Positions 9,923-24,374 of a stretch of 64,000 nt of DNA are shown here, in pieces. This DNA comes from Candidatus Omnitrophota bacterium (GTDB taxonomy: Bacteria; Omnitrophota; Gorgyraeia; Zapsychrales; Fredricksoniimonadaceae). Numbering within the stretch: position 1 is the stretch's first letter; each line of letters opens with the position of its first letter. Below the pieces are notes generated by a model. It saw only the letters and a list, made by a program, of their open reading frames with translations, was not told the DNA's origin and did not search any database. The stretch spans positions 472 to 64,471 of the forward strand of contig JAUSEK010000012.1 of assembly GCA_030650275.1 (NCBI GenBank), read 5' to 3'. The translations under genes were made by a program, and so were the position numbers.

Positions 9923-11466
<1,544 letters not shown>

Positions 11467-11634: not shown

Positions 11635-12552
11635 TTAAGATGAAAAAGAACCCAGAAGGCGGGTCAAATTGCCCCCAAAAACCATGCCTCTTTCGCGGGA
11701 GGACAGGAGGGTTTGGCTGATGACCCCCAGGGAATCCGTAAAGTTCTGGTTGGCGGGAAAATCACTGCCCCAAAGGATATGGGCAATATCCGTCACTTCC
11801 AAAGCTCCTGATAAAGAGGCCGGCGACTTGGAGCCGCTGGTGTCAAAATATAAATTCCTGAAATACTCTCCCGGCGCTTTGCCCAAATCCTTGACAAAAT
11901 TGCGCTTGCGCAGCATCGCATACGTGGAATCAAAACGTTCTTTGACGATGGGCAAAACCCCGCCATAGTGGGCAAAAATAAAATTCACGCCGGGATGCCT
12001 TAAAAATACGCCGGACATCATCATTTTGCCGATGCACATGGACACGTCAAAAACATATTCCAAGACCGGGCTTAACAAGGGGTCGCGCACGCGCTGTTCG
12101 CCGATGGGGTCCATGATCTGGGGATGGACGTGGATGGGAAAATGTTTGGCGCGGGCGAACGCGTACACGTCTTCAAACAGAGCATCGTCGAGATAGGTCC
12201 CCTGATAACTGGACGCGAGGGAAATGGCTTTGAGCCCCAGGTCTTCCATGCGCTTTAATTCCCGGGCGATGGCTGATGGGGCGTCCACCGGAATAATGCC
12301 GGCACCAACGAAACGGTCCGAATATTTTTTCACAAGATCGGCAATGGAAGAATTATATACGGAACACAATTTCTCCCATCCGCCCATGTTCAGGTGCGCG
12401 TCGCTGGTGGGATAGACCAGCAAAGCCCGGTCCACATGATACTCGTCCATGAGACGCAGTTGTTTGTCCGCGTCCGACCAATGCTCCTTGAAGAACGCTG
12501 TTTTCTGCGCCACGTCGGGCGGCATATAATGGCTGTGCGCGTCAATGACCAT
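11635..12552 (-). CDS. amidohydrolase_2 family protein (ACMSD/LigW-like metal-dependent aromatic-acid decarboxylase or hydrolase)
   Basis: 305-aa ORF with an N-terminal IDAHSH metal-binding motif and a TIM-barrel amidohydrolase layout. It is the last gene of the co-directional biosynthetic block. Confidence 0.8.
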   Translation of the reverse strand: MVIDAHSHYMPPDVAQKTAFFKEHWSDADKQLRLMDEYHVDRALLVYPTSDAHLNMGGWEKLCSVYNSSIADLVKKYSDRFVGAGIIPVDAPSAIARELKRMEDLGLKAISLASSYQGTYLDDALFEDVYAFARAKHFPIHVHPQIMDPIGEQRVRDPLLSPVLEYVFDVSMCIGKMMMSGVFLRHPGVNFIFAHYGGVLPIVKERFDSTYAMLRKRNFVKDLGKAPGEYFRNLYFDTSGSKSPASLSGALEVTDIAHILWGSDFPANQNFTDSLGVISQTLLSSRERGMVFGGNLTRLLGSFSS

Positions 12553-12812
12553 CAGACCATCTTACTGTCTTTGAGGATCTTGTCCGCGGCCTGCAGGGCC
12601 TTCATGAGTTCCGGCAAAAGGTGGATGTTGATGGAAACGCCTTTGGCCGTCGGGACCATTTGGTCAGAGCCCTGGGTCAAGGTCCATATGCGCACATCAA
12701 CCAGGTCATTGCCCTTGAACTCACGGATGCCCACGCGGACTTCCTGGAACTTATTTTTGGGAAACACTGAAACGGTTTTGTCCATGATGTTCCTTTCAAC
12801 CGGCCTGCTCAC
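12552..12812 (-). CDS. PC4/YdbC-like single-strand nucleic-acid-binding family protein
   Basis: 86-aa ORF; the KFQEVRVGIREFKGNDLVDVRIW...KGVSI pattern resembles the PC4-like fold. Stop overlaps the next start. Confidence 0.55.
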   Translation of the reverse strand: MSRPVERNIMDKTVSVFPKNKFQEVRVGIREFKGNDLVDVRIWTLTQGSDQMVPTAKGVSINIHLLPELMKALQAADKILKDSKMV

Positions 12813-12861
12813 CGGCTCGCAGGCGCGCTAAGCGGTCCGGCTTATTCGCCGGACCAGCGCC

Positions 12862-12972
12862 CTACTTCGCCTGCGTCTGTTGATAGTCAATGATGGGTTT
12901 GGTCCATGTCGTCAATTGATTGATGACCGCCAACTCCAAAGGACAGGCAATATTCCCTATTCCTTCGACTGC
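12862..12972 (-). pseudogene. duplicated 3' fragment of the adjacent SDR gene (36 codons, ends in the same ...PLELAVINQLTTWTKPIIDYQQTQAK-stop)
   Basis: Imperfect direct repeat of about 85 bp, 12876-12956 versus 12993-13072. The reverse-complement translation reproduces the C-terminal 29 aa of the SDR exactly. Confidence 0.55.
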
Positions 12973-12978
12973 ATAGGT

Positions 12979-13788
12979 TTATTTTGCTTGAGTCTGTTGA
13001 TAGTCAATTATTGGCTTAGTCCATGTTGTTAACTGATTAATGACTGCTAATTCAAGGGGACATGCGTTTGCTGGTACTGACAATGCAAAGCTGACCATGT
13101 CTGCCACGGCCACCGGGTCCATCAAACGGTCGCGCTGTTCCTTGGCCACGTCTTTCAAATGATCGGTCAGATCTGACGCGACGACACCGGGCAACAATGA
13201 AGTGACCTTGATATTGTGTTCGCGCATTTCCCAGAACAGGCCTTTGAGGAACGAACGCAAACCCATTTTCAGGGAACTGTAGGCCAAAAATCCGCGCGGG
13301 ATGGGGTCCACCAGCGTCGAACCGGAAACCACGCTGATGATCTGCCCGCTCTTGCGCGCCACCATGTCGGGGATGACCAGGCGGATCAGGCGCACATAGC
13401 CCAAATAATTGACATGGGCGAGCATTTCAAAATCCTCAATGGGCTGTTGGTGGAATGGATGCTGGCTGGAAACGCCGGCCACGTTGACGAGAATATCAAT
13501 TTGTTTGAAATGTGCCTTGGCCTTTTCCACCAAATTCTTAAGGTCTTCCAGTTTGGCCACGTCGGTCGGAATGCCGACGGCCTCGATGTGATATTTGCTT
13601 TTTAATTCCTGCACAGCCGCATCCAAAGGCCCCTGCGTGCGCGCGGCCAGCACCACATTGGCCCCGTGCTCGGCCAAACGCGCGGCAATGGCACGGCCGA
13701 TGCCGCGGCTTGCCCCGGTGATAAGGGCTGTCTTGCCTTTGAGATCAACCAAAACATGTGCCATACATTTCCTTTCCTGAATGGTCAT
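12979..13788 (-). CDS. short-chain dehydrogenase/reductase (putative polyketide ketoreductase)
   Basis: 269-aa ORF with an N-terminal TGASRGIGRAIA Rossmann motif and a downstream YxxxK catalytic motif. Confidence 0.85.
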   Translation of the reverse strand: MTIQERKCMAHVLVDLKGKTALITGASRGIGRAIAARLAEHGANVVLAARTQGPLDAAVQELKSKYHIEAVGIPTDVAKLEDLKNLVEKAKAHFKQIDILVNVAGVSSQHPFHQQPIEDFEMLAHVNYLGYVRLIRLVIPDMVARKSGQIISVVSGSTLVDPIPRGFLAYSSLKMGLRSFLKGLFWEMREHNIKVTSLLPGVVASDLTDHLKDVAKEQRDRLMDPVAVADMVSFALSVPANACPLELAVINQLTTWTKPIIDYQQTQAK

Positions 13789-14981
13789 TCCCCGAATACA
13801 TCAGGGATGGACTTTTGCCGCAACGGCGTTGAAGGAATGATCTTCGGAACAAAAATGATCTGGGCCAGCATCAAACAACCGATCGCGAAAAACGTCAGGC
13901 CGAAATTCATCTGGATGAAATTGCCGCTCAAATAAAACCCTAAGCCGCCGCTGAAAAACCGCACCGAAGAATTCAACGCCGCCAGTTCCGGCCGGTACAT
14001 GTCCGAAAGATCCGTCAGCACCGTGGATATACCGTTGTGGGCAATGGTCCAGCCGACGGAGATCATGGAAAGCACCAGGGCCAAAAACGCCAGCGAATAA
14101 TGGCCGTATAAAGCCATGGTGGATAATCCTAAGATCGCGATCCCTATATAGCAGGAATTAACGCGGCCATATTTATCCGTGACCACCCCGCCGATGAGCT
14201 GTCCCGCCACAGAGGCAATGGCCGTTAAAATGATCAAAGAACTGATGGTCAACTGATCGTAATTGTAGACCTTATCCAGATAAACGCCATACCATTTGCA
14301 TACGCCGTGAAAGAACAAACTCATGAAAAAAATAAAGATCAGGATGCGACGCAAACCGGCCAGACGAAAAGCATCGCCATAATTGACCTTGACCCCGGTA
14401 TTGGCCTCCATGCCTTCCTCGGGACAGAACCATAAACCGAAAACAAGTACAAAGCCCAACAGCGCCGGGACCGCGAATAGCCAATGCCAGTCGGCAAAAG
14501 CGCTTAAGACCAGCCCCAGCAAGGCGCCAAAGAACGACGAACTGAAAAACAACCCCAGGACCCGGCCGCGGATGTCTTTTTCAAATATCTTGCCCAGCGT
14601 CATGATCGCCAGCGGTGTGACGGCCGCGGCACCGATGCCCGCGATGACCCGCCCCAAGAGGATCATATTGAGCGAATCCGTCCACAGGCACATCCAGTTG
14701 CCGAAACCGCACAGCGCAACAGCCGCGATCATCAAATTTTTGATGGAGAACCGCACGGCCAGCGGCGCGTAAAAAAGCGCGCATACGCCATAGGGAATGA
14801 TATAGAACGGGATGATGCCCGCCGCATCCCCCATTGGAACATTCAAAGAGCGGCTGACCGCCGGAATGACCGCGGTCAGGGCTGAAATGTTAAATGAAAC
14901 AAGAACGTTGGTACAGCAAAAGAAAAATAAGATCCAACGTCTGCTAACGGGCGATCGATCATCGCCCCTACTTACTGACAT
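13785..14981 (-). CDS. MFS transporter
   Basis: 398-aa ORF with 12 predicted TM segments and MFS loop motifs. Overlaps its neighbours (operon). Confidence 0.8.
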   Translation of the reverse strand: MSVSRGDDRSPVSRRWILFFFCCTNVLVSFNISALTAVIPAVSRSLNVPMGDAAGIIPFYIIPYGVCALFYAPLAVRFSIKNLMIAAVALCGFGNWMCLWTDSLNMILLGRVIAGIGAAAVTPLAIMTLGKIFEKDIRGRVLGLFFSSSFFGALLGLVLSAFADWHWLFAVPALLGFVLVFGLWFCPEEGMEANTGVKVNYGDAFRLAGLRRILIFIFFMSLFFHGVCKWYGVYLDKVYNYDQLTISSLIILTAIASVAGQLIGGVVTDKYGRVNSCYIGIAILGLSTMALYGHYSLAFLALVLSMISVGWTIAHNGISTVLTDLSDMYRPELAALNSSVRFFSGGLGFYLSGNFIQMNFGLTFFAIGCLMLAQIIFVPKIIPSTPLRQKSIPDVFGE

Positions 14982-15417
14982 GGGCTTCAGATTCGATCAC
15001 TTTCTTGAATATCTGCAGGTTATCCTGCGAATGCTTGTTGATGAACCCTTCGATCTGCTCGGCGGTGAATTTGGTGAATTTGGGGTCCATTTCAAAATCC
15101 TGGATCCATTTCATGGAAATGCCGCCTTGAACTTCGGTATAGAACCACACAATTTTCATATACAAAAATGGGAACAGCGGGTCCCAACGCTGGGCATAGG
15201 CGAATTTCAGGTCCTTGTATAACCAGCGTTTGGACACCCATGACTTGCCATCCTCATCGGTCAGGCGAAAGGTGATCTCGTTGCCCTTGTGCTCCAGCAC
15301 ATCAGCGCTGGCATATTCCTTGCCGAACAATTCAGTCCAGCGTTCAATCTTGTTGGAAATATCAAAAATCAACTCGTATGGCGCATTGATGATGATTGAA
15401 TTTACTGTATGTCCCAT
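14968..15417 (-). CDS. SRPBCC superfamily protein (polyketide cyclase/aromatase-like, Polyketide_cyc2 type)
   Basis: 149-aa ORF; helix-grip fold length and pattern resemble TcmN/SnoaL-associated cyclase/dehydratase. 14-nt overlap with the MFS gene. Confidence 0.65.
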   Translation of the reverse strand: MGHTVNSIIINAPYELIFDISNKIERWTELFGKEYASADVLEHKGNEITFRLTDEDGKSWVSKRWLYKDLKFAYAQRWDPLFPFLYMKIVWFYTEVQGGISMKWIQDFEMDPKFTKFTAEQIEGFINKHSQDNLQIFKKVIESEAHVSK

Positions 15418-15439
15418 ATCTGCCCTCCCTAAATAAATA

Positions 15440-15468
15440 TTGACTAATAATCAATAAATAATTATACT
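15440..15468 (+). promoter_or_regulatory. sigma70-type promoter (TTGACT-17 nt-TATACT) driving the tRNA-like gene
   Basis: Near-consensus -35 at 15440-15445, a 17-nt spacer, -10 at 15463-15468. The RNA gene starts 13 nt downstream. Confidence 0.65.
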
Positions 15469-15481
15469 TACATCAATTAGT

Positions 15482-15555
15482 GCCCCGGTGGTGTAATGGA
15501 TCAGCATGCAGCTCTGGCGATGTCTGAGGCGCGGGTTCGAATCCCGCCTGGGGTA
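15482..15555 (+). tRNA. tRNA-like gene with aberrant D/anticodon region (isotype undetermined, possible pseudo-tRNA or tRNA-like sRNA)
   Basis: 7-bp acceptor stem (GCCCCGG/CUGGGGU), a perfect T-arm GCGGG-UUCGAAU-CCCGC and a discriminator A. Positions 8-49 do not fold into canonical D and anticodon arms. Instead they form one 7-bp bulged hairpin with a 12-nt loop GCAGCUCUGGCG. Confidence 0.5.
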
Positions 15556-15558
15556 CTA

Positions 15559-15606
15559 AAGGCCTTAAAGATCGAGCCAGAGCGATTTTTAAGGCCATCT
15601 TTTTTC
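15559..15606 (+). terminator. intrinsic terminator after the tRNA-like gene
   Basis: Stem GGCCTTAAA / TTTAAGGCC with a 16-nt loop, followed by ATCTTTTTTCTT. Confidence 0.7.
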
Positions 15607-15681
15607 TTGCAAAGAACAGTTAAAAATGATATATTTTAATTAATCGATTTTCGCCAGAGCTGTATGTTATCCAGTTTCATT

Positions 15682-15713
15682 AGGCCGCGATCACTCGCGG
15701 CCTTTCTTTTTAT
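15682..15713 (+). terminator. second plus-strand intrinsic terminator
   Basis: AGGCCGCGA-TCAC-TCGCGGCCT hairpin followed by TTCTTTTTAT. Confidence 0.55.
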
Positions 15714-15909
15714 GTTTGCAACCACCCTTTTAACCTCATTCCGGACGCATGATAATTCTTGGCTGGCACCGATTCCCGATTCTCCACGGCGCGCTTCCCT
15801 TCTGCCCTTCTCTCGTTGGGCTGTCCCCCATTCCCAGGGTCAAGACTAGTTGGGCGTTCTAATTTAATGAATCGTGTCTTTTTTAAACTACAGCCAAGAT
15901 AAATTTAAT

Positions 15910-16749
15910 CTATAAAATAGCGACTACCCTGCTCCAACCCGCTCCCGCATTCCTTACTTTAACAGGTAAACAAGACACCGTAAACCCAAACGGTTTCGGG
16001 ATGGTGCCTAAATTACCCAAACGTTCCATGTGACAATACTCGCGCTCGCGTCCGAGGAAATGGCAGGGCCAGATCTTACTCTTGTCCTTGGTGGTCAAAA
16101 ATTCCTTGAACATCAAAAAACACGGGCGGTCAAGGCCGATGGTGTCAATGCCCATCATCTTGATGCCCGCATCCAGCAAATACTCCACGGCATCGGGCAT
16201 CATGCCCACATATTTGTTCACGTAATCGTCGGTCCCCAACAACTTGTCCCCACCCGTATAAATGAGCACAATGTCCATTGGCTTTAAAATATATTTGATC
16301 TTTTTCAGCGCGGCAATGACATGGTCCTTGGTGATGGCATCGGGGAATTTCAAATGGGTGAGATCCAAAACCACGCCGGGGCCATAACACCACTCCAGCG
16401 GCACGTCCATGATCTGTTTGGCCGGCTTGCCCTCGCACATACTTCCATAATGGAACGGCGCATCCACATGAGAGCCCATGTGCACCGACGAATGCACCAC
16501 TTCCAAAGACGGCATTTCGCCGCCGGGGATCTCCTCTGCCGTAGCAACACGCTCGCCTTTGTCAAAACGCTCCTGGCCCCCGGGCTGTTTGCTCATCACC
16601 ACCCAGTTGAAATGTTCAACACCCTGCGCATGCGTGATGCGGTCGATCTTGGCATCGTGCGTTTCGACAAGTGTGTCATCTATGGGTAAACTAAGGTCTA
16701 TAATTTTCATAATGCCTGGATTCCCGACAGAAACATTCGGGAATGACAA
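15910..16749 (-). CDS. cyclase-family protein (PF04199-like, kynurenine-formamidase fold; HxGxHxDxPxH metal motif)
   Basis: 279-aa ORF with a VHMGSHVDAPFHY motif. The first 13 codons (MSFPNVSVGNPGI) are encoded by a repeat element, so the true start is probably Met14 at 16710. Confidence 0.8.
   Translation of the reverse strand: MSFPNVSVGNPGIMKIIDLSLPIDDTLVETHDAKIDRITHAQGVEHFNWVVMSKQPGGQERFDKGERVATAEEIPGGEMPSLEVVHSSVHMGSHVDAPFHYGSMCEGKPAKQIMDVPLEWCYGPGVVLDLTHLKFPDAITKDHVIAALKKIKYILKPMDIVLIYTGGDKLLGTDDYVNKYVGMMPDAVEYLLDAGIKMMGIDTIGLDRPCFLMFKEFLTTKDKSKIWPCHFLGREREYCHMERLGNLGTIPKPFGFTVSCLPVKVRNAGAGWSRVVAIL
16716..16748. repeat. REP-like palindromic element, copy A (ATTCCCGAC-N9-TCGGGAAT core)
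   Basis: CTGGATTCCCGACAGAAACATTCGGGAATGACA. Related copies at 24765-24837 and 29840-29867. Sits at the ACP/cyclase gene junction. Confidence 0.6.
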
Positions 16750-16754
16750 TTGGA

Positions 16755-17039
16755 TTAATGCTCATGCCCACAGCCGCAGGAATGGCCGCCACTGGCCTGG
16801 GCCTTGGATCTTAGAATGCCGATGATCTCATTGAACGAATGCGTCTTTTTCAATTCATTGTCCTTAAGCGCGATGCCCAGTTCCTTTTTGATACCGACCG
16901 AGATCTCCACCATTTCCGTTGAGTCAATGTCCAAGGACTCGTCCAGTTTTGCGCCGGGGATGATCTCGCTGTCCTTGATATCCAGAACCTTTTTGAAGAT
17001 GGCTTTGACCTTGCTTTCGAGGTCTGTCTGGGTCTGCAT
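16755..17039 (-). CDS. acyl carrier protein (phosphopantetheine Ser in a DIDSTEMVEI motif) with a Cys/His-rich C-terminal tail
   Basis: 94-aa acidic ORF with an ACP four-helix pattern. The C-terminus is SGGHSCGCGHEH. Confidence 0.8.
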   Translation of the reverse strand: MQTQTDLESKVKAIFKKVLDIKDSEIIPGAKLDESLDIDSTEMVEISVGIKKELGIALKDNELKKTHSFNEIIGILRSKAQASGGHSCGCGHEH

Positions 17040-17060
17040 TTTTTTCTCCGTTTAATGTTT

Positions 17061-18293
17061 TTAAAGTTTCTGCAGGACTAAAACGCAGTTGATCCCGCCG
17101 CGTCCGCGGTTGATGATCAAAGCATTCTTGATAGTTTTTGCCTGCGCTTTGTTGGGGCAATAATCCAGGTCGCATTCCGGGTCCGGTGTCTGATAATTGA
17201 TGGTCGGCGGCACCATGCCGTGTTCCATGGCCAGCACCGTCGTGATGACGTCCAAAGCCCCGCAGGCGCCCAGCATATTGCCGAACACCGACTTAGGCGC
17301 GGACACCGGTACCTTCTTCGCGTAACCGTTAAAGGCCTGTTTGATGGCTTTTGTTTCGGTGATGTCGCCCAAAACTGTTGCAGCACCATCAGCGCAAATA
17401 TAATCAATGTCTTTGGGGGAAAGCCCGGCATCGTCCAGGGCTGATCTGATGGCACGGGCCAATTGTTTGGCATCCGGCGCCGGATCAATGCGGTTGACAG
17501 CATCGGTGGTGGACGCATAACCGATGATATTGGCATAGACATGGGCTTTACGCTTGATGGCCCGTGACTGCGGTTCCAGCGTCAAGACCCCGGCACCTTC
17601 GGCAATGGCCAAACCATCGCGGTTTTTGTCAAACGGCCGATACGCTTGGCGCGGGTCATCATTGCGTTTGGACAAAACCCCTGACGTGTTGCAGCACAAA
17701 AGCGCGTAGGGCGTCACCGGCGCTTCCATGCCCCCGGCCAAAATAAAATCGCATTTGTTACGGATGATGGTCCTGGCCGCGTAGCCGATGGCCATCAAAG
17801 AACTGGCCCTGTCCGCGACAATGGTCTTGGAAAAACCTTTGATGCCGTAATGAATGGATATCTGCCCCTGCGGTGCCGCGGGAAACCACGCGGAGGCCAT
17901 GAAAGGACTCACCCCTTCCCGGCCTTCCAGATACATATCGCGCAACTCGGTCTCGGCATACAGCCAACCGCCCAAGGCATTGCCCATAAAGATCCCGACG
18001 CGCTTTAAATCCTCGTCAGGCAGATTAATGCCCGCGTCATTCAGGCACATTTCAGAAGCCACCAAAGCCATATGCGAAAAAAGATCTATCTTCTTTAAAA
18101 GCCGCGATGAGACATTGCTATAAGCATCCAATTCTTTGACAGTCCCGGCAATGCGCGACGGATAAGCGCTGGCGTCGAAACGCTCGATCTTTTCAACCGC
18201 GCTCCTGCCATGGGCCACATTGGCCCAGAACACTTTTTTGTCCATCCCTGACGGGGATATGACGCCTAAACCGGTGATCGCAATGGGGTCCAT
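17061..18293 (-). CDS. ketosynthase-like chain-length-factor partner (KS-beta/CLF-like; catalytic triad replaced)
   Basis: 410-aa thiolase-fold KS homolog. The active-site Cys position reads ADRASS (Cys to Arg). Both catalytic His positions are changed (CADGAAT has Asp, FGNMLGA has Asn). 4-nt overlap with the upstream KS gene. Confidence 0.8.
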   Translation of the reverse strand: MDPIAITGLGVISPSGMDKKVFWANVAHGRSAVEKIERFDASAYPSRIAGTVKELDAYSNVSSRLLKKIDLFSHMALVASEMCLNDAGINLPDEDLKRVGIFMGNALGGWLYAETELRDMYLEGREGVSPFMASAWFPAAPQGQISIHYGIKGFSKTIVADRASSLMAIGYAARTIIRNKCDFILAGGMEAPVTPYALLCCNTSGVLSKRNDDPRQAYRPFDKNRDGLAIAEGAGVLTLEPQSRAIKRKAHVYANIIGYASTTDAVNRIDPAPDAKQLARAIRSALDDAGLSPKDIDYICADGAATVLGDITETKAIKQAFNGYAKKVPVSAPKSVFGNMLGACGALDVITTVLAMEHGMVPPTINYQTPDPECDLDYCPNKAQAKTIKNALIINRGRGGINCVLVLQKL

Positions 18294-19561
18294 TAGGAAT
18301 ACCTTTGCAAGGTCATGGCTGAGTGAATGCCGGAAAAACCACTGGATGTCTTAAGAATACAATTAACTTTCTTCTGTATCGCTTCGTTGGGAATGTAATA
18401 CAGATCACATAAGGGGTCCGGTTCCTGCTGATTGATGGTCGGCGGCAAAATGTTGCGCTCAAAGATCAGGGAACTCAAAGCCAGCTCTATTCCGTTGGCA
18501 CCGGCCAAAGGATGGCCGATCATGGACTTCACCGAACTGATGGGAACTTTATACGCGTACGGGCCCAAGGCCATCTTATAAGCGCTGGTCTCGAACACAT
18601 CGTTCTGGCGCGTCGAGGAACCATGGGCGTTGACATAATCAATGGTTTCGGGTTTGATGCCGGCATCTTCCAGGGCCAAGGTAATGCTGTCGGCCATGGC
18701 ATCGCCTTCCGGCGGCAGATCGGTCATGTGATAAGCATTGCAGGTGGTGCCGAAACCGGTGATCTCGCAATAAATGCGCGCCCCGCGTTTGAGGGCGTGC
18801 TCCAATTCTTCAACGACCAAAAGCCCGGCGCCTTCGGAAATGACAAAACCGTTGCGTTGATTGTCGAACGGCCGTGAGGCCCCGGCCGGATCATCATTGT
18901 GCACGGAAAGGACATTGACAGTGTCAAAAGCGCCGAACGTGATGGGGGTGACGGGCGCTTCACTGGCGCCGGTGAGCATGATGTCCGCGTCCCCGTCGCT
19001 GATGGCCTCAAAAGAAAACCCGACGGAGTCCGTGCCCGCGGTACAACCCGTAGAAATGGTATTGCAAACACCCTGAAGGCCATACTTGGCGGAAAGTTCA
19101 CTCGAAGGCGTGTTGAACATCGCGGCATCGTATAGGTCCGGACGGACAATAAGCGGATTGATGGGTTTCTTGCCGCTGTCCGTGACCAGGGCGAATTCTT
19201 CTTCCATGTATTTGGTGCCGCAAATGGCATTGGCCAAAGACACGCCCATGCGCTCTTTGTCCACTTTGAAGAGATCCAAACGGGAATCCTGCAAGGCCAT
19301 GCGGCCGGCCACCATGGCGAATTGGACATAACGGTCCATGCGTATGGCTTCTTCAAACGTAAGACCCAAAGCCACGGGGTCAAAATCACGCACCTGGGCC
19401 GCGATCTTGGTGTTAAAGAGCGACACATCAAATTCTGTGACCCGGCGCACAGCCGAAACGCCCTTGATCATGGCGCTGTAACAGGCATCATTGCCGATGC
19501 CGTTGGGCGCGATGATGCCGACGCCCGTGACAACCACCCTGCGTTTCTTATTCTTATTCAT
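18293..19561 (-). CDS. beta-ketoacyl synthase (KS-alpha type, intact Cys-His-His)
   Basis: About 422 aa. Active-site Cys in ISTGCTAGTDS, His in NAHGSST and MIGHPLAG. The ATG at 19559-19561 overlaps the stop of the preceding gene. Confidence 0.9.
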   Translation of the reverse strand: MNKNKKRRVVVTGVGIIAPNGIGNDACYSAMIKGVSAVRRVTEFDVSLFNTKIAAQVRDFDPVALGLTFEEAIRMDRYVQFAMVAGRMALQDSRLDLFKVDKERMGVSLANAICGTKYMEEEFALVTDSGKKPINPLIVRPDLYDAAMFNTPSSELSAKYGLQGVCNTISTGCTAGTDSVGFSFEAISDGDADIMLTGASEAPVTPITFGAFDTVNVLSVHNDDPAGASRPFDNQRNGFVISEGAGLLVVEELEHALKRGARIYCEITGFGTTCNAYHMTDLPPEGDAMADSITLALEDAGIKPETIDYVNAHGSSTRQNDVFETSAYKMALGPYAYKVPISSVKSMIGHPLAGANGIELALSSLIFERNILPPTINQQEPDPLCDLYYIPNEAIQKKVNCILKTSSGFSGIHSAMTLQRYS

Positions 19562-19989
19562 CAATGCCTCAACGTTTCGTCCATCAAATTGTTATGGCTG
19601 GCAATGACCTGCCAGCGGTCCTTACCTTTTTTCCACGTCATGGTGTAGCGGCGGATGACCCGCTTGCCGCCTTCCGCGTTGATCTCAACCGTAAAGATCA
19701 AATATTGCAAAATGGCGATGTCCCCGTGGAGTTTCATCTGAACAGGACGCAATTCGCAGATGGCGATATTCGTATTCTTGGTCCAGAACCCCACCCATTT
19801 CTCCAGCCACGGACGGTCAACGGGAATGGGGCTTTCATGGCCATAGCCGATCATGTCAGGATGAATGTATTTAATAAATTCATCCACACGCTTGTTGATC
19901 AAATGGTCCCAATGCGTTTCCACGCAACCCCACACCTCACGCTCTTTTTCCCCCCAATACTCTGGGATCCATGACGCTAATTGACTCAT
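19561..19989 (-). CDS. SnoaL-like/NTF2-superfamily protein (putative polyketide cyclase)
   Basis: 142-aa ORF with an alpha+beta cone-fold pattern. Translationally coupled to the KS gene. Confidence 0.65.
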   Translation of the reverse strand: MSQLASWIPEYWGEKEREVWGCVETHWDHLINKRVDEFIKYIHPDMIGYGHESPIPVDRPWLEKWVGFWTKNTNIAICELRPVQMKLHGDIAILQYLIFTVEINAEGGKRVIRRYTMTWKKGKDRWQVIASHNNLMDETLRH

Positions 19990-21002
19990 ATGGCCTCCGC
20001 TTTTAATTTTAAACCAAATGCGTTCTTCACATGTTCCACACTAAAGAATTTTCCCGTCCGCTCAACCTCATGCACCATATCCACGACGCGTTCGTTGAGC
20101 GGCGCATGGCCATGCAGACCTTTAGCCAAACGCACCGCTTCCCCGTTAATGAACTCTATTTCGCTCGTCTTGCCGCGCAGGATGCTCTGCAAAATAGAAC
20201 CGTACAACGGTTCTTTGCTCAAACCGGTCAGGGTTTTGTTGATGATCCCAGCACTTTGTTCAAGCGGCATATTGGCCAAACCTAAAATTCTTTCCTTCGG
20301 GAAATCCGGCATGGAAACCATCTCGATCTTCGCCTGCCGCACAATGTCCAGCCCTTCCTTGAGCAGCAGAATGCTCAAACGGCACAGGTCCAGATCAGCA
20401 AAGGTCTCCTGCATGGACTTGCCGACCAGCGCCGGGATGCAATTGTTGAAATTCACAAAAAGTTTCAGGTACTTCATCCCCATGATGTCGGGGCTCATCA
20501 CCACTTTAAACGCCTTGCCCAGGACCTCACCGGCCTTATGCGCGGCCGGGTCCAAAGGCGCCAAGGGACGGCCGATGATCCAATCGCCTTCAAAATTGAA
20601 AGTCACCTCGCCGGGTTTGACGTAAGTAGCGCCGAACATCACGATGCTTGACATTTGCCGGCCGCGGTCAAGATGGTTGCTCAATAAATGGTCCGCCTGT
20701 ACGCCGTTCTGGCTTGTCAAAACAAGGCCTGTTCCCAGATATTCACTATTTTGCTCAAAGGCCTTTTCCAGGTCTTGCGTCTTGACGGTAAAAATGACCA
20801 GGTCATAGGGTTTGTCCAGACGCAAGGCGGTGCGCACGCGAATATTCTCACTTCCCCGCACGCCCTTGATGGTCAGACCATTGGCCTTGATGGCCTTCAC
20901 CTGATCGGGCCGGCCCACTAAAAGCACGTCCTGCCCTGCCTTGGTCAAATAACCGGCGACAACACAACCGATGGCGCCGGCACCGATGACCGCGATCGTC
21001 AT
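19986..21002 (-). CDS. 2-dehydropantoate 2-reductase (ApbA/PanE) family NAD(P)H-dependent oxidoreductase
   Basis: 338-aa ORF with an N-terminal IAVIGAGAIG Rossmann motif and the KPR two-domain architecture. Confidence 0.8.
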   Translation of the reverse strand: MTIAVIGAGAIGCVVAGYLTKAGQDVLLVGRPDQVKAIKANGLTIKGVRGSENIRVRTALRLDKPYDLVIFTVKTQDLEKAFEQNSEYLGTGLVLTSQNGVQADHLLSNHLDRGRQMSSIVMFGATYVKPGEVTFNFEGDWIIGRPLAPLDPAAHKAGEVLGKAFKVVMSPDIMGMKYLKLFVNFNNCIPALVGKSMQETFADLDLCRLSILLLKEGLDIVRQAKIEMVSMPDFPKERILGLANMPLEQSAGIINKTLTGLSKEPLYGSILQSILRGKTSEIEFINGEAVRLAKGLHGHAPLNERVVDMVHEVERTGKFFSVEHVKNAFGLKLKAEAI

Positions 21003-21268
21003 GCCTGCCCCTTATAATGAAGACCAACCTCATCCATGATACGGATCATCAACGAATAGAAGGCCTTGGGCACTTCCGTCGTGAAAGCGGCCACAATGTC
21101 CTTTTCCTCAACCTGCGTCGAGGCGCGCTGCTGCGCGTTCTGTTCGGCCTTTTTATTCACCACTTCCTGCGCGATGCCGCGATGGAAAATGGGAATAAGA
21201 TTGAGCATCCTGTTGTATTTAGCCAGGGCCGTGGGCTCCCAGGCCATTGTCGTGTGAACGCTGACCAT
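20999..21268 (-). CDS. hypothetical small protein (89 aa) coupled to the radical-SAM gene
   Basis: Overlaps both neighbours by 4 nt. No confident motif; possibly a PCP_red-like accessory domain, as often found next to B12-binding radical-SAM enzymes. Confidence 0.45.
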   Translation of the reverse strand: MVSVHTTMAWEPTALAKYNRMLNLIPIFHRGIAQEVVNKKAEQNAQQRASTQVEEKDIVAAFTTEVPKAFYSLMIRIMDEVGLHYKGQA

Positions 21269-21272
21269 TATT

Positions 21273-22745
21273 TTACTTCGCCGCGGACACGCGCGAGTTC
21301 GCCTCCCATTTGGAAATGTTATTCATGAAATCCTTCACGCACAATTTCACCTTGATATGATAGTTGCTTTCCATGATCCGGTGGATGCGTTCCGGCTTGG
21401 AATAATATTCACGCATGCACCAGGCCCCCAAACGGCCGACCTCCTCGATGCTGAGATGATCGGTGGGGATGACCGGATGCTGGAAATCCCAGTCCTTGAG
21501 ATCGATCTTGTCCGGATCGAACCATCCTTTCTTGATCCCGTAACGCCAGTCCGGAGAATTGGGCACCGGCGTCAAATAATCCAGGGCAAAAATGTCCGAA
21601 TCGATCTCATCGGCAACGCGCAAACGTTCCTTGATCTTCGCTTCCGTGTCCTCTTTGAGGCCGATCAATACCGTCCCGACACTGCCGATATCATTTTCAC
21701 GCAAAATATCGACCGTCTTTCTGATCTGCGCGATGGTCACTCCTTTGCCGGTCTTGCTCAAGGTCATATCGTCCTCGACCTCCACACCCGTTAACGCCAA
21801 AAACAAGCCCGCTTTTTTCATCAACGGCAGGATCTCGTGCTGGGAGACCCATTGGTCGGCACGGCCCAAACACACCCAGTCGATCTTGTTGCCGCGCTTG
21901 AGTTTCTCCTCGCAGAATTCGATCATGGCGGCGGTGTCCGTATTGAACGCGTCATCCTGAAAAACAACCGTGTTGATCCCGTATTGCTTCTCTAAAATAT
22001 CCAGTTCATCAACGATGCGTTTGCCTTTCAGCCCCCGCCAGGACGTGAAATCTTTGGCGGCGGTGCGGCTGTCATAAAGCGCCCATTCATAACAAAAATG
22101 ACATTTGCCCGGACAACCGCGGGACGTCATCAATTCCGCGAACGGTTTCCAATAGGTGTGCCCGACATATTTGTCCATGGGGAACAGATCATAAGCCGGC
22201 ATGGGCAGGACGTTCAAATCAGGGATCAGATCACGGTGCGGCCCCACGACAATGGCCCCGTCTTTCTGACGGGACACCAGGCCCGGGATCTCCCGTTCAT
22301 TCCTGGGATCGCCCGCGGCCATATTATTGATCAGGTCCTCCATGGTCAATTCCGCCTCCCCGATCATGATGTAGTCAATGGTCGGGTTCAAGCGCATCTG
22401 GCGTTCGTAATCGCCGGAATACCATAACCCCCCGGCCACGGTCCTGACCTTAGGGCTAGCTTCTTTGATGATGCGAAGCCCCTCATTAAAATACCAGATG
22501 ACCGCGGCACCGCAGGTGGAATGCAGCAATTCCCCGACAAAAACAATGTCCGGCTTGCTGTTTTGAACGAATTTCAGCATCGCCTCCCAGTCCATGTCCA
22601 GCGCGCGGGAGTCGAGCACTTCCACCTGGGCTAGATTTCTTTCACGCAAATAGGCGGCCAGCTGCGCGTGCATCTGATTGGCGGCTTTGTGGTTGCCGTG
22701 TGAATCCCATGCTTTCAACGGCGGTGTCAAAAATAGAACTTTCAT
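21273..22745 (-). CDS. B12-binding radical SAM protein (class B rSAM, methyltransferase/BchE-like)
   Basis: 490-aa ORF with an N-terminal cobalamin-binding Rossmann-like domain and a CPGKCHFC (CxxxCxxC) radical-SAM cluster motif. An AGGAGA Shine-Dalgarno sequence lies upstream. Confidence 0.85.
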   Translation of the reverse strand: MKVLFLTPPLKAWDSHGNHKAANQMHAQLAAYLRERNLAQVEVLDSRALDMDWEAMLKFVQNSKPDIVFVGELLHSTCGAAVIWYFNEGLRIIKEASPKVRTVAGGLWYSGDYERQMRLNPTIDYIMIGEAELTMEDLINNMAAGDPRNEREIPGLVSRQKDGAIVVGPHRDLIPDLNVLPMPAYDLFPMDKYVGHTYWKPFAELMTSRGCPGKCHFCYEWALYDSRTAAKDFTSWRGLKGKRIVDELDILEKQYGINTVVFQDDAFNTDTAAMIEFCEEKLKRGNKIDWVCLGRADQWVSQHEILPLMKKAGLFLALTGVEVEDDMTLSKTGKGVTIAQIRKTVDILRENDIGSVGTVLIGLKEDTEAKIKERLRVADEIDSDIFALDYLTPVPNSPDWRYGIKKGWFDPDKIDLKDWDFQHPVIPTDHLSIEEVGRLGAWCMREYYSKPERIHRIMESNYHIKVKLCVKDFMNNISKWEANSRVSAAK

Positions 22746-22795
22746 AACGTTCTCCTGTTATTGTACGGGCGGGGTTACCCCGCCCCTACGTTCAT

Positions 22796-24298: not shown

Positions 24299-24302
24299 AC
24301 GG

Positions 24303-24374
24303 AATTATGGGGACACAATACTTAATTCCTAATGCTTGTCAAACGGTTGAATTAAATATTGTGTCCCTATAATT
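24303..24374. repeat. 72-bp palindromic element with AATTATGGGGAC termini (second copy of the ITS element family)
   Basis: AATTATGGGGACACAATA ... TATTGTGTCCCTATAATT with an 18-bp stem. Intergenic between the ALDH and aldolase genes. Confidence 0.55.

What the first reader, a model, noticed from the sequence alone, without database searches (positions are those of the whole stretch)
15440..15720. tRNA-like gene with its own promoter and dual terminators, antisense inside the biosynthetic operon, lacking canonical D and anticodon arms
A near-consensus sigma70 promoter (TTGACT-17-TATACT) sits upstream and a clean intrinsic terminator downstream, on the opposite strand between the cyclase and SRPBCC genes. 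The 74-nt RNA has a perfect acceptor stem, T-arm (GCGGG-UUCGAAU-CCCGC) and discriminator base. Positions 8-49 cannot form the usual D and anticodon arms. They fold instead into a single 7-bp bulged hairpin with a 12-nt loop. It could be a degenerate tRNA or a tRNA-like regulatory RNA. It could also be a genuine tRNA with an unusual architecture that my manual fold misses.
Basis: seen in the sequence. Interest (0 to 1): 0.6.

Follow-up and report, generated by a model that had tools for sequence, protein, structure and literature searches.

The report
tRNA-shaped RNA with its own antisense partner
The flagged "odd tRNA" is one half of a compact two-gene RNA cassette, apparently undescribed and recurring in Omnitrophota bacteria: a tRNA-shaped RNA that does not look like a decoding tRNA, followed by a small RNA that is antisense to its D-loop and anticodon arm; the cassette is a dispensable insertion, not part of the polyketide pathway around it.

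Summary
Window 15482-15555 (+) is detected as a tRNA: Rfam scores it 46.2 bits against a cut-off of 29, and ARAGORN reports "tRNA-???" with a 4-nt anticodon. Its D arm is canonical. Only the anticodon arm is defective.

The gene is the first half of a ~290-nt module:
- promoter P1;
- the tRNA-like RNA (tRL), whose acceptor helix is extended 5-6 bp by its leader and trailer;
- terminator hairpin H1, whose loop complements the tRL anticodon loop;
- a second promoter, P2;
- a ~70-nt sRNA that is antisense to the tRL from the D-loop to the anticodon loop (23 pairs with one bulge, 28 in the RNAduplex prediction);
- terminator T2.

I found about 60 distinct copies in Omnitrophota genomes and metagenomes. 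The "anticodon" differs between copies (GAC, CAC, AAC, GGC, GCU and others), and the partner sRNA co-varies with it. Copies lie between unrelated genes (cyclase|SRPBCC, dnaK|dnaJ and others), and several can share one contig. At this site the module is absent from most homologous PKS clusters. Decayed copies always keep the sRNA and lose the tRL.

Most likely this is an autonomous sense/antisense RNA pair that resembles a toxin-antitoxin system. Its function is untested. I found no published description.

The parts
15440..15468 (+). Promoter P1 (-35 TTGACT, 17-nt spacer, -10 TATACT). The -35 lies inside a 15-bp palindrome, TTGACTAATAATCAA (15440-15454), which may be an operator.
   Evidence: One search gives a 10/12 match to consensus. 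The TTGAnnnnnnnTCAA palindrome is present in 51 of 60 modules, the -35 is TTGATA/TTGATT/TTGACT, and the -10 is TAnnAT. The palindrome is unique in the window.
15477..15481 (+). 5' leader UUAGU. It pairs with trailer ACUAA (15555-15559) and extends the acceptor helix to 12 bp. The predicted transcription start, about 15475-15476, lies at the base of this helix.
   Evidence: Seen directly in the sequence. Covariation in 47 sequences: pair -1:73 is CG 18 / UA 16 / UG 13, and pair -2:74 is GC 20 / AU 18 / GU 8. The MFE fold keeps this helix. The start site is inferred from the position of the -10.
15482..15555 (+). tRNA-like RNA (tRL). Acceptor stem 15482-15488 with 15548-15554. D stem 15491-15494 with 15504-15507, and D loop AAUGGAUCA. 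Defective anticodon arm 15509-15526, with loop CUGGCGA at 15514-15520. 4-nt variable loop. T arm 15531-15547. Position 73 (A) at 15555. No CCA is encoded.
   Evidence: ARAGORN reports tRNA-??? (ggcg). Rfam RF00005 scores 46.2 bits against a gathering score of 29. 18 homologues found among 20 loci scanned score 39.6-59.1 bits.
15561..15606 (+). Hairpin H1 (14-bp stem, 8-nt loop AGCCAGAG at 15575-15582) followed by a U-tract. It is the terminator of the tRL transcript. Loop bases GCCAGAG (15576-15582) are complementary to CUCUGGC (15512-15518) in the tRL anticodon stem and loop.
   Evidence: Terminator scan. The H1 loop's longest complementary run to its own anticodon arm has a median of 7 nt, against 4 nt for non-cognate arms, in 52 modules.
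15607..15635 (+). Promoter P2 (-35 TTGCAA, 17-nt spacer, extended -10 TGaTATATT), which drives the antisense sRNA.
   Evidence: 9/12 match, TG present. It is conserved in essentially all modules: -35 TTGCAA in 31 and TTGAAA in 21; -10 TATACT in 25 and TATATT in 21.
15642..15712 (+). Antisense sRNA ('sRNA2', about 70 nt; the start is inferred). Segment 15652-15673 (CGCCAGAGCUGUAUGUUAUCCA) pairs with tRL 15497-19 (UGGAUCAGCAUGCAGCUCUGGCG): that is, D-loop G18 G19 A20, the D-stem 3' strand, the anticodon-stem 5' strand and the anticodon loop. There are 2 G-U pairs and one bulge.
   Evidence: RNAduplex gives -42.4 kcal/mol over 28 pairs. Cofolding gives a ddG of -17.7 kcal/mol after paying for unfolding both RNAs. 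Cognate duplexes average -36.5 kcal/mol against -21.2 for non-cognate pairs, in 52 modules.
15682..15713 (+). Terminator T2 of sRNA2 (stem AGGCCGCGA/UCGCGGCCU with a U-tract). In most other loci it directly abuts the stop codon of the convergent gene.

Best explanation
The locus is an autonomous ~290-nt two-gene non-coding RNA cassette. It is not a decoding tRNA and not a component of the polyketide pathway.

Gene 1 (P1 to H1) makes a stable, compact tRNA-shaped RNA, the tRL. It has:
- a canonical D arm, T arm and elbow;
- an acceptor helix closed and lengthened by leader/trailer pairing;
- no CCA;
- a weak, fast-evolving anticodon hairpin whose loop keeps only a Y-U-N-R-C pattern, which looks like a U-turn loop.

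Gene 2 (P2 to T2) makes a ~70-nt sRNA whose 5' part is antisense to the tRL from the D-loop to the anticodon loop.

Proposed mechanism. The sRNA nucleates on the exposed U-turn anticodon loop. It then zips into a 20-30 bp (in some copies about 40 bp) duplex that unfolds the D stem, the elbow and the anticodon arm. This inactivates the tRL and probably marks it for RNase III. The H1 loop carries a shorter copy of the same antisense sequence and may mask the anticodon loop in the primary transcript.

What is shown: the anatomy, the structural covariation, the cognate-specific complementarity, the multi-copy and patchy distribution, and the asymmetric decay.

What is inferred: that the two RNAs are made separately, that pairing neutralises the tRL, and that the pair behaves like an RNA-only toxin/antitoxin (addiction or selfish) module. 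In that reading the tRNA mimic is the harmful partner, for example by titrating a tRNA-binding enzyme such as ArgRS, RNase P or the CCA-adding enzyme, and the sRNA is its antidote.
For: 1. Real tRNA shape. Rfam tRNA scores 46.2 bits here and 39.6-59.1 bits in 18 homologues. On 47 distinct sequences 91.3% of cells are paired, against 81.5% in shuffles and at most 55.6% in slid registers. There are 163 double-change cells against 43 expected. The D stem is 97% paired, the T stem 98%, and the extended acceptor helix 93%.

2. Not a decoder.
- ARAGORN assigns 15 different anticodons to members, including gac 17, cac 13, gct 6, aac 6 and ggc or ggcg 8.
- The anticodon stem is only 74.5% paired, its hairpin energy is -0.2 to -3.6 kcal/mol, and the loop is often 9 nt.
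- tRNA-Ala and tRNA-Ile in the window encode CCA; the tRL does not.

3. Cognate antisense partner.
- The X/X' segments differ completely between genomes yet match within each module.
- Cognate duplexes average -36.5 kcal/mol against -21.2 for non-cognate pairs. The cognate partner ranks first or second in 35 of 52 modules.
- Two modules sharing a contig are largely orthogonal: -33 and -51 for own partners against -27 and -18 crossed; -32 and -41 against -21 and -15.
- In some copies the complementarity runs back to the acceptor 5' strand, about 40 nt in total.

4. The functional strand is the + strand, and the pairing is at RNA level.
- G-U pairs are frequent in the helices.
- In the duplex, 68 transition mismatches are G-U-compatible and 22 are A-C.

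5. The loop keeps U33 (40/47), R35 (45/47) and C36 (46/47). This matches the YUNR U-turn motif that serves as the nucleation scaffold in sense/antisense systems such as hok/Sok, pIP501 and bsrG/SR4 (PMC3834814).

6. Separate transcription units. Both promoters and both terminators are conserved.

7. Autonomous and dispensable.
- The module is present at only about 6 of 80 cyclase loci. All of these fall in one sub-clade, interleaved with empty sites and remnants.
- The same module lies between dnaK and dnaJ, next to an epimerase gene, and elsewhere.
- Two copies per contig occur in L089 and L101 (L109 appears to be the same sequence as L101; a third case, L121, may be a mis-assembly).

8. Decay asymmetry of the kind expected for a toxin and its antidote.
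- At least 7 remnants (L008, L031, L033, L038, L081, L092, and a third copy in L122) keep sRNA2 but have lost or broken the tRL.
- Extra orphan sRNA2 genes exist in L095 and L122.
- No intact tRL lacks a cognate sRNA2 in the 142 loci.

9. No conserved ORF lies in the module, so there is no peptide toxin.
Against: - There is no expression data. Transcript ends, processing and abundance are all inferred from consensus motifs.
- Toxicity of the tRL is pure inference, and no target is identified.
- The decay asymmetry could have another cause. sRNA2/T2 abuts the convergent gene, so deletions that spare that gene may preferentially remove the tRL side. The number of independent events is also small.
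- H1's U-tract is weak in some copies. Read-through could then make one long RNA in which X and X' pair intramolecularly.
- Non-cognate duplex energies include close relatives, so the specificity statistics are not phylogenetically independent.
- The invariant C2-C5:G68-G71 block and the conserved C36 are not explained by the pairing model. They hint at a protein partner I could not identify.
- The conserved palindrome in P1 implies a regulator that I also could not identify.
Confidence: 0.5

Rival explanations
1. A regulatory sRNA with its sponge. sRNA2 is the effector and regulates mRNAs elsewhere through its variable 5' seed. The tRL is a stable tRNA-shaped decoy that titrates it, as tRNA-derived 3'ETS fragments sponge RyhB/RybB in E. 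coli.
For: The anatomy and co-variation fit as well as they do for the main model. sRNA2 looks like a classical seed / U-rich / terminator sRNA. Orphan sRNA2 genes exist without a tRL, which would make sense if sRNA2 has a function of its own.
Against: The complementarity spans 20-40 nt and includes the conserved D-loop, far more than a seed. X differs completely between close relatives, so any mRNA target would have to co-vary too. No additional X-like site was found in 297 kb of surrounding sequence, apart from one single-mismatch hit. This model does not explain why a sponge needs a full tRNA elbow and an invariant acceptor stem.
Confidence: 0.2
2. A cis-acting antisense or transcription-interference element. 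Convergent transcription from P1 and P2, and the antisense RNAs, modulate read-through from cyclase into SRPBCC-MFS-SDR (and from dnaK into dnaJ). This would uncouple expression of the downstream genes.
For: The module is always antisense to, and sandwiched between, co-directional genes, with T2 abutting the upstream gene's stop codon. P1 sits about 20 nt from the SRPBCC start codon.
Against: This does not explain the tRNA fold, the covariation, the trans-complementary second gene or the orthogonal specificities. Most homologous operons work without the module. The antisense orientation is equally expected if sense-oriented terminators are simply counter-selected within operons.
Confidence: 0.1
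3. A functional, aminoacylated tRNA. It could be an unusual isoacceptor, an 8-nt-loop quadruplet decoder or frameshift suppressor (GGCG), or a dedicated aminoacyl carrier for a tRNA-dependent tailoring enzyme of the gene cluster.
For: It scores above the Rfam tRNA threshold. ARAGORN proposes a 4-nt anticodon. A35-C36 (valine-type) is frequent in the family. The D-loop GGA (A20) and the acceptor GCCCCGG resemble tRNA-Arg. M. smegmatis YrlA shows that a tRNA-like RNA can be cut by RNase P and receive CCA (PMC4201824).
Against: The anticodon is not conserved, even at the syntenic site. Anticodon stems are weak or irregular and loops are 7-9 nt. No CCA is encoded, unlike the genuine tRNAs here. 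The leader/trailer helix co-varies, which argues that the ends stay paired. The module is absent from most related genomes and clusters. No tRNA-dependent enzyme family (LanB, CDPS, Fem/GNAT, PEARL, aaRS-like) was found among the 20 ORFs scanned at 11.6-31.8 kb. A dedicated antisense RNA is not a feature of tRNA genes.
Confidence: 0.07
4. A non-functional relic: a decaying tRNA pseudogene or an att-site remnant left by an integrative element, with fortuitous promoter-like and terminator-like sequences.
For: Truncated copies exist (L031, L033, L081, L092). MITE-like repeats and small endonuclease-like ORFs are nearby in several loci.
Against: About 60 distinct copies keep the fold through compensatory changes, keep both promoters and both terminators, and keep the X/X' complementarity although X itself has been completely replaced. 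This is purifying selection on RNA structure and pairing, not decay.
Confidence: 0.03
5. A DNA-level element. The inverted repeat (X in the tRL, X' in sRNA2) would be the recombination site of an invertible switch, or the hairpin ends of an IS200/IS605-type MITE.
For: A 20-30 bp imperfect inverted repeat flanks a ~130-bp segment that contains promoter P2. Distribution is patchy and multi-site.
Against: No inverted-orientation variant was seen among about 60 copies. No recombinase or TnpA gene is linked. Mismatches in the repeat are biased 68:22 toward G-U on the + strand, which points to RNA pairing. The RNA cloverleaf covaries.
Confidence: 0.03

Closest known systems
Type I toxin-antitoxin sense/antisense pairs (hok/Sok, Ibs/Sib, bsrG/SR4)
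   Same: Small autonomous cassettes: a structured, stable target RNA next to a separately promoted small antisense RNA. The target has a YUNR U-turn recognition loop. There are multiple paralogous copies with cognate-only specificity. Distribution is patchy and copies decay. (PMC3834814 and PMC2943612, plus my own knowledge.)
   Different: There is no toxin ORF here; the target is a tRNA-shaped non-coding RNA. The antisense gene is trans-encoded in tandem on the same strand, not overlapping on the opposite strand. Toxicity has not been shown.
Type VIII (RNA toxin / RNA antitoxin) systems such as SdsR/RyeA and CreT/CreA
   Same: Both partners would be RNAs. In these systems a non-coding RNA is the harmful partner, neutralised directly or indirectly by an RNA. 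(Own knowledge.)
   Different: SdsR/RyeA is cis-antisense. CreT acts through rare arginine codons that sequester tRNA-Arg, and CreA needs Cascade. Neither involves a tRNA mimic. Membership cannot be tested here.
ColE1 RNA I / RNA II copy-number control
   Same: Cloverleaf-like multi-hairpin RNAs that recognise each other through anticodon-loop-like kissing loops and then zip into a long duplex. The loop sequences set specificity (incompatibility groups). (Own knowledge.)
   Different: Those RNAs are cis-encoded, fully complementary transcripts at a plasmid origin. Here the module is chromosomal, only the 5' half of a true tRNA fold is targeted, and there is no replication context.
Bacterial Y RNAs (YrlA) and other tRNA mimics (tmRNA TLD, TYMV TLS, mascRNA)
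   Same: Non-decoding RNAs that keep the tRNA D/T elbow and so engage tRNA-handling enzymes. In YrlA the acceptor-like stem is closed, and the M. smegmatis version can be cut by RNase P and receive CCA (PMC4201824).
   Different: YrlA has permuted topology: its ends lie in a Ro60/Rsr-binding stem at the anticodon position, and it is linked to rsr/rtcBA. Here the topology is that of a normal tRNA, there is no Rfam YrlA or tmRNA hit even at E<=10, and there is a dedicated antisense partner, which none of these mimics has.
T-box leader : tRNA recognition
   Same: An RNA reads a tRNA's anticodon by base pairing. (Own knowledge.)
   Different: A T-box pairs with 3-4 nt of anticodon plus the NCCA end, stacks on the elbow, and controls a downstream gene in cis. 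Here 20-40 nt are paired, including the D arm, which would unfold the tRNA shape. No gene lies downstream on that strand, and there is no Rfam T-box hit.
Canonical bacterial tRNA-Arg (probable evolutionary source)
   Same: Acceptor stem GCCCCGG/CCGGGGY, as in a tRNA-Arg(UCU) captured in L096. D-loop ..UGGAUA.. with A20. One family member (L089, second copy) still has the typical AGCUCAAAUUGGAUAGAGCA D arm. That A20 is a hallmark of tRNA-Arg is my own knowledge.
   Different: No C35; variable anticodon; weak anticodon stem; no CCA; extended terminal helix; own promoter and terminator; antisense partner.

Membership tests
Canonical decoding tRNA (Rfam RF00005) | Cloverleaf with acceptor, D, anticodon and T arms that scores above the family threshold | tested here: met
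   46.2 bits against a gathering score of 29. Homologues score 39.6-59.1 bits. Covariation supports the acceptor, D and T stems.
Canonical decoding tRNA (Rfam RF00005) | Regular 5-bp anticodon stem with a 7-nt loop, and an anticodon conserved among orthologues | tested here: not met
   The window copy needs a bulged U plus a U-U mismatch, or else an 8-nt loop. Across the family the stem is 74.5% paired, weak, and often has a 9-nt loop. ARAGORN assigns 15 different anticodons, and they differ even at the syntenic site.
Canonical decoding tRNA (Rfam RF00005) | A free 5' leader and 3' end that can mature to NCCA (here: CCA encoded, as in the genome's other tRNAs) | tested here: not met
   tRNA-Ala and tRNA-Ile in the window encode CCA; the tRL is followed by CUAAAGG. 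Leader and trailer form a co-varying 5-6 bp extension of the acceptor helix. Actual processing cannot be tested with these tools.
Canonical decoding tRNA (Rfam RF00005) | Stable presence across related genomes, as a housekeeping gene | tested here: not met
   Present at about 6 of 80 syntenic loci, interleaved with empty sites and remnants.
Gene-cluster-dedicated tRNA or tRNA-like cofactor | Co-inheritance with the gene cluster, and a tRNA-dependent enzyme in it | tested here: not met
   In L004 and L020 the cyclase stop lies about 20 nt from the SRPBCC start, and most other homologous clusters also lack the module. The module also occurs between dnaK and dnaJ and elsewhere. Pfam shows KS, CLF, ACP, cyclases, SDR, MFS, B12-rSAM, ALDH and methionine-salvage genes, but no LanB, CDPS, Fem or aaRS-like enzyme.
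Type I toxin-antitoxin | A small (usually hydrophobic) toxin ORF in the target RNA | tested here: not met
   No ORF is conserved in position, frame or sequence across modules.
Type I toxin-antitoxin | A dedicated small antisense RNA with cognate specificity and a YUNR-type recognition loop | tested here: met
   The YUNR concept is taken from PMC3834814. All evidence is at sequence level; kinetics were not tested.
RNA-only (type VIII-like) toxin-antitoxin | The RNA partner is growth-inhibitory, and the antitoxin RNA relieves it | not testable with these tools
   Only indirect evidence: every remnant keeps sRNA2 and loses the tRL, and no tRL lacks a cognate sRNA2.
Bacterial Y RNA (YrlA) | A Ro60/Rsr-binding stem formed by the RNA ends, permuted tRNA-like topology, and rsr linkage | tested here: not met
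   The topology is that of a normal tRNA. No Rfam hit other than tRNA and weak chance terminator matches at E<=10. No TROVE or rtc genes among the 20 ORFs scanned.
T-box riboswitch | Specifier loop plus antiterminator upstream of a regulated gene; Rfam T-box model | tested here: not met
   No T-box hit. No ORF lies downstream on the + strand before the convergent cyclase.
tmRNA | A tRNA-like domain with G3-U70 plus a tag reading frame | tested here: not met
   ARAGORN finds no tmRNA. The 3:70 pair is C-G.

The most novel reading that the evidence does not exclude
A previously unrecognised class of RNA-only addiction or defence module. The 'toxin' is a tRNA mimic (derived from tRNA-Arg, with a closed acceptor end) that poisons a tRNA-handling enzyme or the translation apparatus. 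The 'antitoxin' is a tandem-encoded sRNA that unfolds it by invading from the anticodon U-turn loop. Many orthogonal specificities would be maintained per genome in the ultra-small, probably host-dependent Omnitrophota.
Probability: 0.25. Interest if true: 0.85.

Novelty: new variant of a known kind. Interest (0 to 1): 0.7.

Why it matters
1. Annotation. These genes pass tRNA detectors and come out as tRNA-Val, Ala, Ser, Pro or "undetermined". They could therefore distort tRNA counts and codon-capacity inferences for Omnitrophota MAGs, and could be mistaken for cluster-linked or suppressor tRNAs.

2. Biology. A full tRNA fold used as the target of a dedicated, co-evolving antisense RNA is, as far as I could find, undescribed. 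It would link two well-studied themes, tRNA mimicry and antisense/TA pairs.

3. Tools. The family is a natural set of orthogonal RNA-RNA specificity pairs built on one scaffold, with clear predictions for kinetics (U-turn nucleation) and for synthetic biology.

4. Testability. If the tRL is toxic or acts as a decoy, it points to a tRNA-binding target in an uncultivated phylum. That target could be tested in E. coli or in vitro without culturing the organism.

Tried and rejected
- Rfam at permissive thresholds over 15300-15900 gave only tRNA plus weak chance matches to terminator-containing sRNAs (ncS54, SorY, RyhB and others). There was no T-box, YrlA, tmRNA or tRNA-Sec hit.
- The idea of a tRNA dedicated to the gene cluster was rejected on distribution and on Pfam content.
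- A peptide toxin was rejected because no ORF is conserved.
- Other targets of X or X' were sought in the window and in 297 kb of neighbouring loci. Only the module itself matched, apart from one extra single-mismatch X'-like site in L127, which was not examined.
- The P1 palindrome was searched elsewhere in the window to define a regulon. It is unique.
- The viral collection was scanned with the module pattern and gave 0 hits.
- Four literature searches found no description. Three (tRNA-like + Omnitrophota; tRNA-like + RNA toxin/antitoxin; Omnitrophica + ncRNA + tRNA) returned nothing relevant. The fourth (tRNA-like + antisense + U-turn + kissing + TA) returned only general type I TA and antisense-RNA papers, two of which I cite for comparison.
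- Two recurrent neighbouring small ORFs (148 aa, HNH-like by eye, and 340 aa) gave no Pfam hit.
- An exact-protein lookup of the SRPBCC gene found only one 3.9-kb Logan contig identical to the window. The source genome could therefore not be examined for copy number or for its full tRNA set.
- I considered a Glu- or Val-type tRNA ancestry. I rejected Glu (the resemblance was from memory only). I left Val open, because A35-C36 is frequent. I favour Arg on the D-loop and acceptor evidence.
Full report
**1. What is at the coordinates**

The + strand of 15440-15720 carries the following features, in order:
- a promoter-like site, TTGACT-17-TATACT, at 15440-15468;
- a tRNA-like gene at 15482-15555;
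- a 14-bp hairpin with a U-tract at 15561-15606;
- a second promoter-like site with an extended -10 (TTGCAA-17-TGaTATATT) at 15607-15635;
- a second GC-rich hairpin with a U-tract at 15682-15713.

ARAGORN reports the gene as "tRNA-???" with a 4-nt anticodon, ggcg. Infernal with Rfam RF00005 scores it 46.2 bits against a gathering score of 29. The two genuine tRNAs of the rRNA operon in the same window score 66-67 bits.

The Infernal alignment shows:
- a normal acceptor stem;
- a normal 4-bp D stem (GUGU/GCAU) with a GG-containing 9-nt loop;
- a 4-nt variable loop;
- a perfect T arm;
- a defective anticodon arm: CAGCU / CUGGCGA / UG(u)CUG, with a bulged U and a U-U mismatch.

The second terminator belongs to another gene.

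The flanking genes, all on the - strand, form a type II PKS-like cluster:
- KS-alpha at 18293-19564, CLF at 17061-18293 and ACP at 16755-17039;
- a PF04199 cyclase at 15910-16749;
- the module;
- SRPBCC at 14968-15417, followed by MFS, SDR and an amidohydrolase.

**2. Organism and synteny**

The cyclase has homologues of 75-93% identity in many Candidatus Omnitrophota MAGs. I fetched 80 species-level genome loci around it.

ARAGORN found a tRNA at the same place and on the same strand in only five of them, and each had a different "anticodon": cgc, gac, gct, cac and cac.

Reading those loci showed that the whole arrangement is conserved as a unit: P1, tRNA-like RNA (tRL), hairpin H1, P2, a short RNA (sRNA2) and terminator T2. 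It also showed that the variable anticodon-arm sequence (X) always reappears as its reverse complement (X') just downstream of P2. A shorter version of X' (6-8 nt) appears in the apical loop of H1.

In the window:
- X is AGCUCUGGCG (15510-15519);
- X' is CGCCAGAGCU (15653-15662);
- the H1 loop contains GCCAGAG (15576-15582).

**3. More copies and their contexts**

I scanned the metagenome collection with a pattern spanning the T loop, the acceptor 3' strand and the start of H1. It returned 61 loci. About 57 are true modules and two are ordinary tRNAs. Together with the genome loci this gives 60 non-redundant full modules. The viral collection gave none.

Flanking-gene clustering found these recurrent contexts:
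- cyclase | SRPBCC, in about 20 loci;
- dnaK | dnaJ, in 8 loci;
- downstream of a GDP-sugar epimerase-type gene (Pfam);
- several others.

The module is always antisense to the flanking genes, and T2 abuts the stop codon of the convergent gene. Two full modules occur on one contig in L089 and L101 (L109 appears to be the same sequence as L101; a third case, L121, may be a mis-assembly).

At the cyclase site most loci have no module. In L004 and L020 the cyclase stop lies about 20 nt from the SRPBCC start. On a cyclase similarity tree, the full copies (window, L007, L009, L019, L021, L040) fall in one sub-clade. There they are interleaved with empty sites and remnants at under 8% amino-acid divergence, and different tRL subtypes occupy the same site.

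The module is therefore a dispensable and dynamic insertion, not part of the PKS operon design.

**4. The tRL is a real tRNA-shaped RNA but not a decoder**

On an alignment of 47 distinct tRLs with 7-nt flanks, I tested the cloverleaf plus a 6-bp leader/trailer extension.

| Measure | Observed | Control |
|---|---|---|
| Cells paired | 91.3% | 81.5% in shuffles (0 of 500 reach it); at most 55.6% in slid registers |
| Cells with changes on both sides | 163 | 43 expected |

Individual pairs:

| Pair | Pair types seen |
|---|---|
| -1:73 | CG 18, UA 16, UG 13 |
| -2:74 | GC 20, AU 18, GU 8 |
| 1:72 | GC 30, AU 11, GU 5 |

The D stem is 97% paired and the T stem 98% paired, both with compensatory changes. 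Pairs 2-5:68-71 (CCCC:GGGG) are invariant. The many G-U pairs show that the + strand is the functional one.

The anticodon stem is different. It is only 74.5% paired, its hairpin is worth -0.2 to -3.6 kcal/mol, and the loop is often 9 nt. ARAGORN assigns 15 different anticodons across the family.

The loop keeps only U33 (40/47), R35 (45/47) and C36 (46/47). This is a Y-U-N-R pattern.

The window's tRNA-Ala and tRNA-Ile encode CCA, and the tRL does not. The 18 tRLs found among 20 further loci all pass the Rfam tRNA threshold, at 39.6-59.1 bits, so pipelines will probably annotate them as tRNAs.

The D-loop GGA(U)A (A20) and the acceptor GCCCCGG match a tRNA-Arg(UCU) captured by chance in L096. 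One family member still has an AGCUCAAAUUGGAUAGAGCA D arm. This suggests descent from tRNA-Arg. That A20 marks tRNA-Arg is my own knowledge.

**5. The antisense partner**

sRNA2 is complementary to more than X. It also covers the D-stem 3' strand and the D-loop: the conserved UUAUCCA in sRNA2 is the complement of UGGAUAA. In some copies the complementarity runs back to the acceptor 5' strand, about 40 nt in total.

Duplex energies from RNAduplex on 52 modules:
- cognate pairs have a mean of -36.5 kcal/mol; the weakest is -20.8;
- non-cognate pairs have a mean of -21.2 kcal/mol;
- the cognate partner ranks first or second in 35 of 52 modules, and the exceptions are close relatives with the same X.

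For the window, the duplex has 28 pairs and -42.4 kcal/mol. Cofolding still favours the heterodimer by -17.7 kcal/mol after both RNAs are unfolded.

Within the duplex, transition mismatches are G-U-compatible on the + strand 68 times and A-C 22 times. This argues for RNA-RNA pairing rather than a DNA-level repeat or a - strand RNA.

The H1 loop's longest complementary run to its own anticodon arm has a median of 7 nt, against 4 nt for non-cognate arms. Two modules on one contig are largely orthogonal.

Both promoters are conserved:
- P1: -35 TTGATA in 37 of 58, inside a TTGAT-N5-ATCAA palindrome present in 51 of 60;
- P2: -35 TTGCAA or TTGAAA, with an extended -10 TATAYT.

The single-sequence folds have z-scores of -4.8 for tRL+H1 and -3.7 for sRNA2. 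No ORF is conserved in the module.

**6. Decay pattern**

Remnants always keep sRNA2 and lose the tRL:
- L081: the tRL is deleted from P1 to mid-H1, and the rest is nearly identical to the window.
- L038: H1 and sRNA2 only.
- L008: sRNA2 only.
- L031: the tRL 5' fragment is fused to P2.
- L033: the tRL 5' half is gone.
- L092: only the T arm onward remains.
- A third copy in L122.

L095 and L122 carry extra orphan sRNA2 genes. The one in L122 has exactly the window's specificity, CGCCAGAGCUGUAUGUUAUCCAG.

No intact tRL without a cognate sRNA2 was seen in the 142 loci.

**7. Interpretation**

The best-supported reading is an autonomous sense/antisense RNA pair. The tRL is a stable tRNA mimic whose ends are sealed in a 12-13 bp helix. 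sRNA2 recognises its exposed anticodon loop, then invades the weak anticodon stem and the D arm. This destroys the L-shape and creates an RNase III-type duplex.

YUNR U-turn loops are the established nucleation scaffold in hok/Sok, pIP501 and bsrG/SR4 (PMC3834814).

Several features parallel multi-copy type I TA families such as Ibs/Sib (PMC2943612, listed):
- multiple copies with orthogonal specificities;
- patchy distribution and neighbouring mobile elements;
- decay that always spares the antisense gene.

Because there is no ORF, I propose an RNA-only toxin/antitoxin-like module in which the tRNA mimic is the harmful partner. That last step is inference only.

Rivals are scored in the report sections:
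- sRNA2 as regulator with the tRL as its sponge;
- cis transcription interference on the host operon;
- a functional charged tRNA;
- a pseudogene;
- a DNA-level inverted-repeat element.

**8. Comparison with known systems and novelty**

The module resembles type I TA and ColE1-type antisense control in mechanism, and YrlA, tmRNA and viral TLS in being a tRNA mimic. It fails the defining features of each:
- it has no toxin ORF;
- it is not cis-antisense;
- it lacks the Ro-binding permuted topology (PMC4201824);
- it gives no Rfam hit other than tRNA.

Four full-text searches found no description. I rate it a new variant of a known kind: an antisense-controlled RNA with a full tRNA fold as the target. 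If toxicity or decoy activity were demonstrated, it could prove categorically new.

**9. Caveats**

- There is no expression data.
- Specificity statistics and covariation counts are inflated by relatedness between copies.
- Only one pattern-based metagenome scan was possible, so more divergent relatives and other phyla were not sampled.
- The source genome could not be retrieved, so copy number and the complete tRNA set are unknown.

Noticed in passing
window 15725-15909: A ~185-nt non-coding element lies between terminator T2 and the cyclase stop codon. In most loci T2 directly abuts the stop. At 88-93% identity the element recurs near modules or at the same site in L002 (which has no module), L118, L003, L094, L019 and L086. 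It looks like a small mobile repeat (MITE-like). It begins with a degenerate duplicate of the cyclase 3' end (gcaaccaccctt...).
   Followed up: partly
window 11635-29179 (- strand); loci L002-L081: The type II PKS-like cluster is unusually conserved across Omnitrophota: the cyclase is 75-93% identical in 80 species-level genomes. It often sits a few kb from the rRNA operon. It contains an AMP-ligase, MTA phosphorylase, MtnA- and MtnB-like genes, an aldehyde dehydrogenase, a B12-radical SAM enzyme, a PanE-like reductase, a SnoaL-like protein, KS/CLF/ACP, a PF04199 cyclase, SRPBCC, MFS, SDR and an amidohydrolase. This degree of conservation looks more like core metabolism (a lipid or cofactor?) than a typical secondary-metabolite cluster.
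   Followed up: partly
L009 9000-9300; flanks of L083, L090, L092, L097, L099, L102, L122: A hairpin repeat of the type GTCATTCCCGCGAAAGCGGGAATGAC/GGAATCC is abundant next to the modules. In L009 a ~150-nt element carrying it has inserted between P1 and the tRL, duplicating ~20 nt of the promoter-proximal sequence (GATAATAyAATCATCAATTTA).
   Followed up: no
L122 10080-10640 (- strand of locus); L040 8800-10240; L088, L112: Free-standing small endonuclease-like ORFs sit beside modules in several loci. One has a GIY-YIG-like motif (GIYALY...YIG). A recurrent 148-aa protein looks HNH-like by eye, and a recurrent 340-aa protein is also present; neither of these two has a Pfam hit. They may be homing-type genes that contribute to module turnover.
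   Followed up: partly
L122 ~10650-10773 (locus coordinates, - strand): An orphan sRNA2 gene has an antisense segment (CGCCAGAGCTGTATGTTATCCAG) identical to that of the window's sRNA2. It sits next to a module of a different specificity, and no matching tRL is on the 13.7 kb of locus sequence available for that 16-kb contig.
   Followed up: partly
window 15440-15454 and 51 of 60 modules: A 15-bp palindrome, TTGAT(A/T)AATAATCAA, overlaps the -35 of P1. It is far better conserved than a promoter spacer should be, which implies a dimeric DNA-binding regulator. It is unique in the 64-kb window, and no candidate regulator was identified (a PadR-family gene lies at 31248-31760).
   Followed up: partly
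window 15910-16749 (-): The mechanically listed cyclase ORF starts at a TTG. All homologues align only from residue 13-14, so the real start is probably the downstream ATG, near 16710.
   Followed up: no
window 29912-30751 (-) and 50096-56581 (-): An IS3-type transposase (rve, rve_3 and HTH_21 domains) borders the cluster. A 2161-aa giant ORF lies further on. Neither was examined.
   Followed up: no
L121 1531-1842 versus 2611-2916: Two near-identical modules lie in opposite orientation about 1 kb apart, each followed by a cyclase 3' end. The second copy carries several single-base indels (for example GGTTCGAAATCCC). This may be an assembly artefact or a recent inverted duplication.
   Followed up: no
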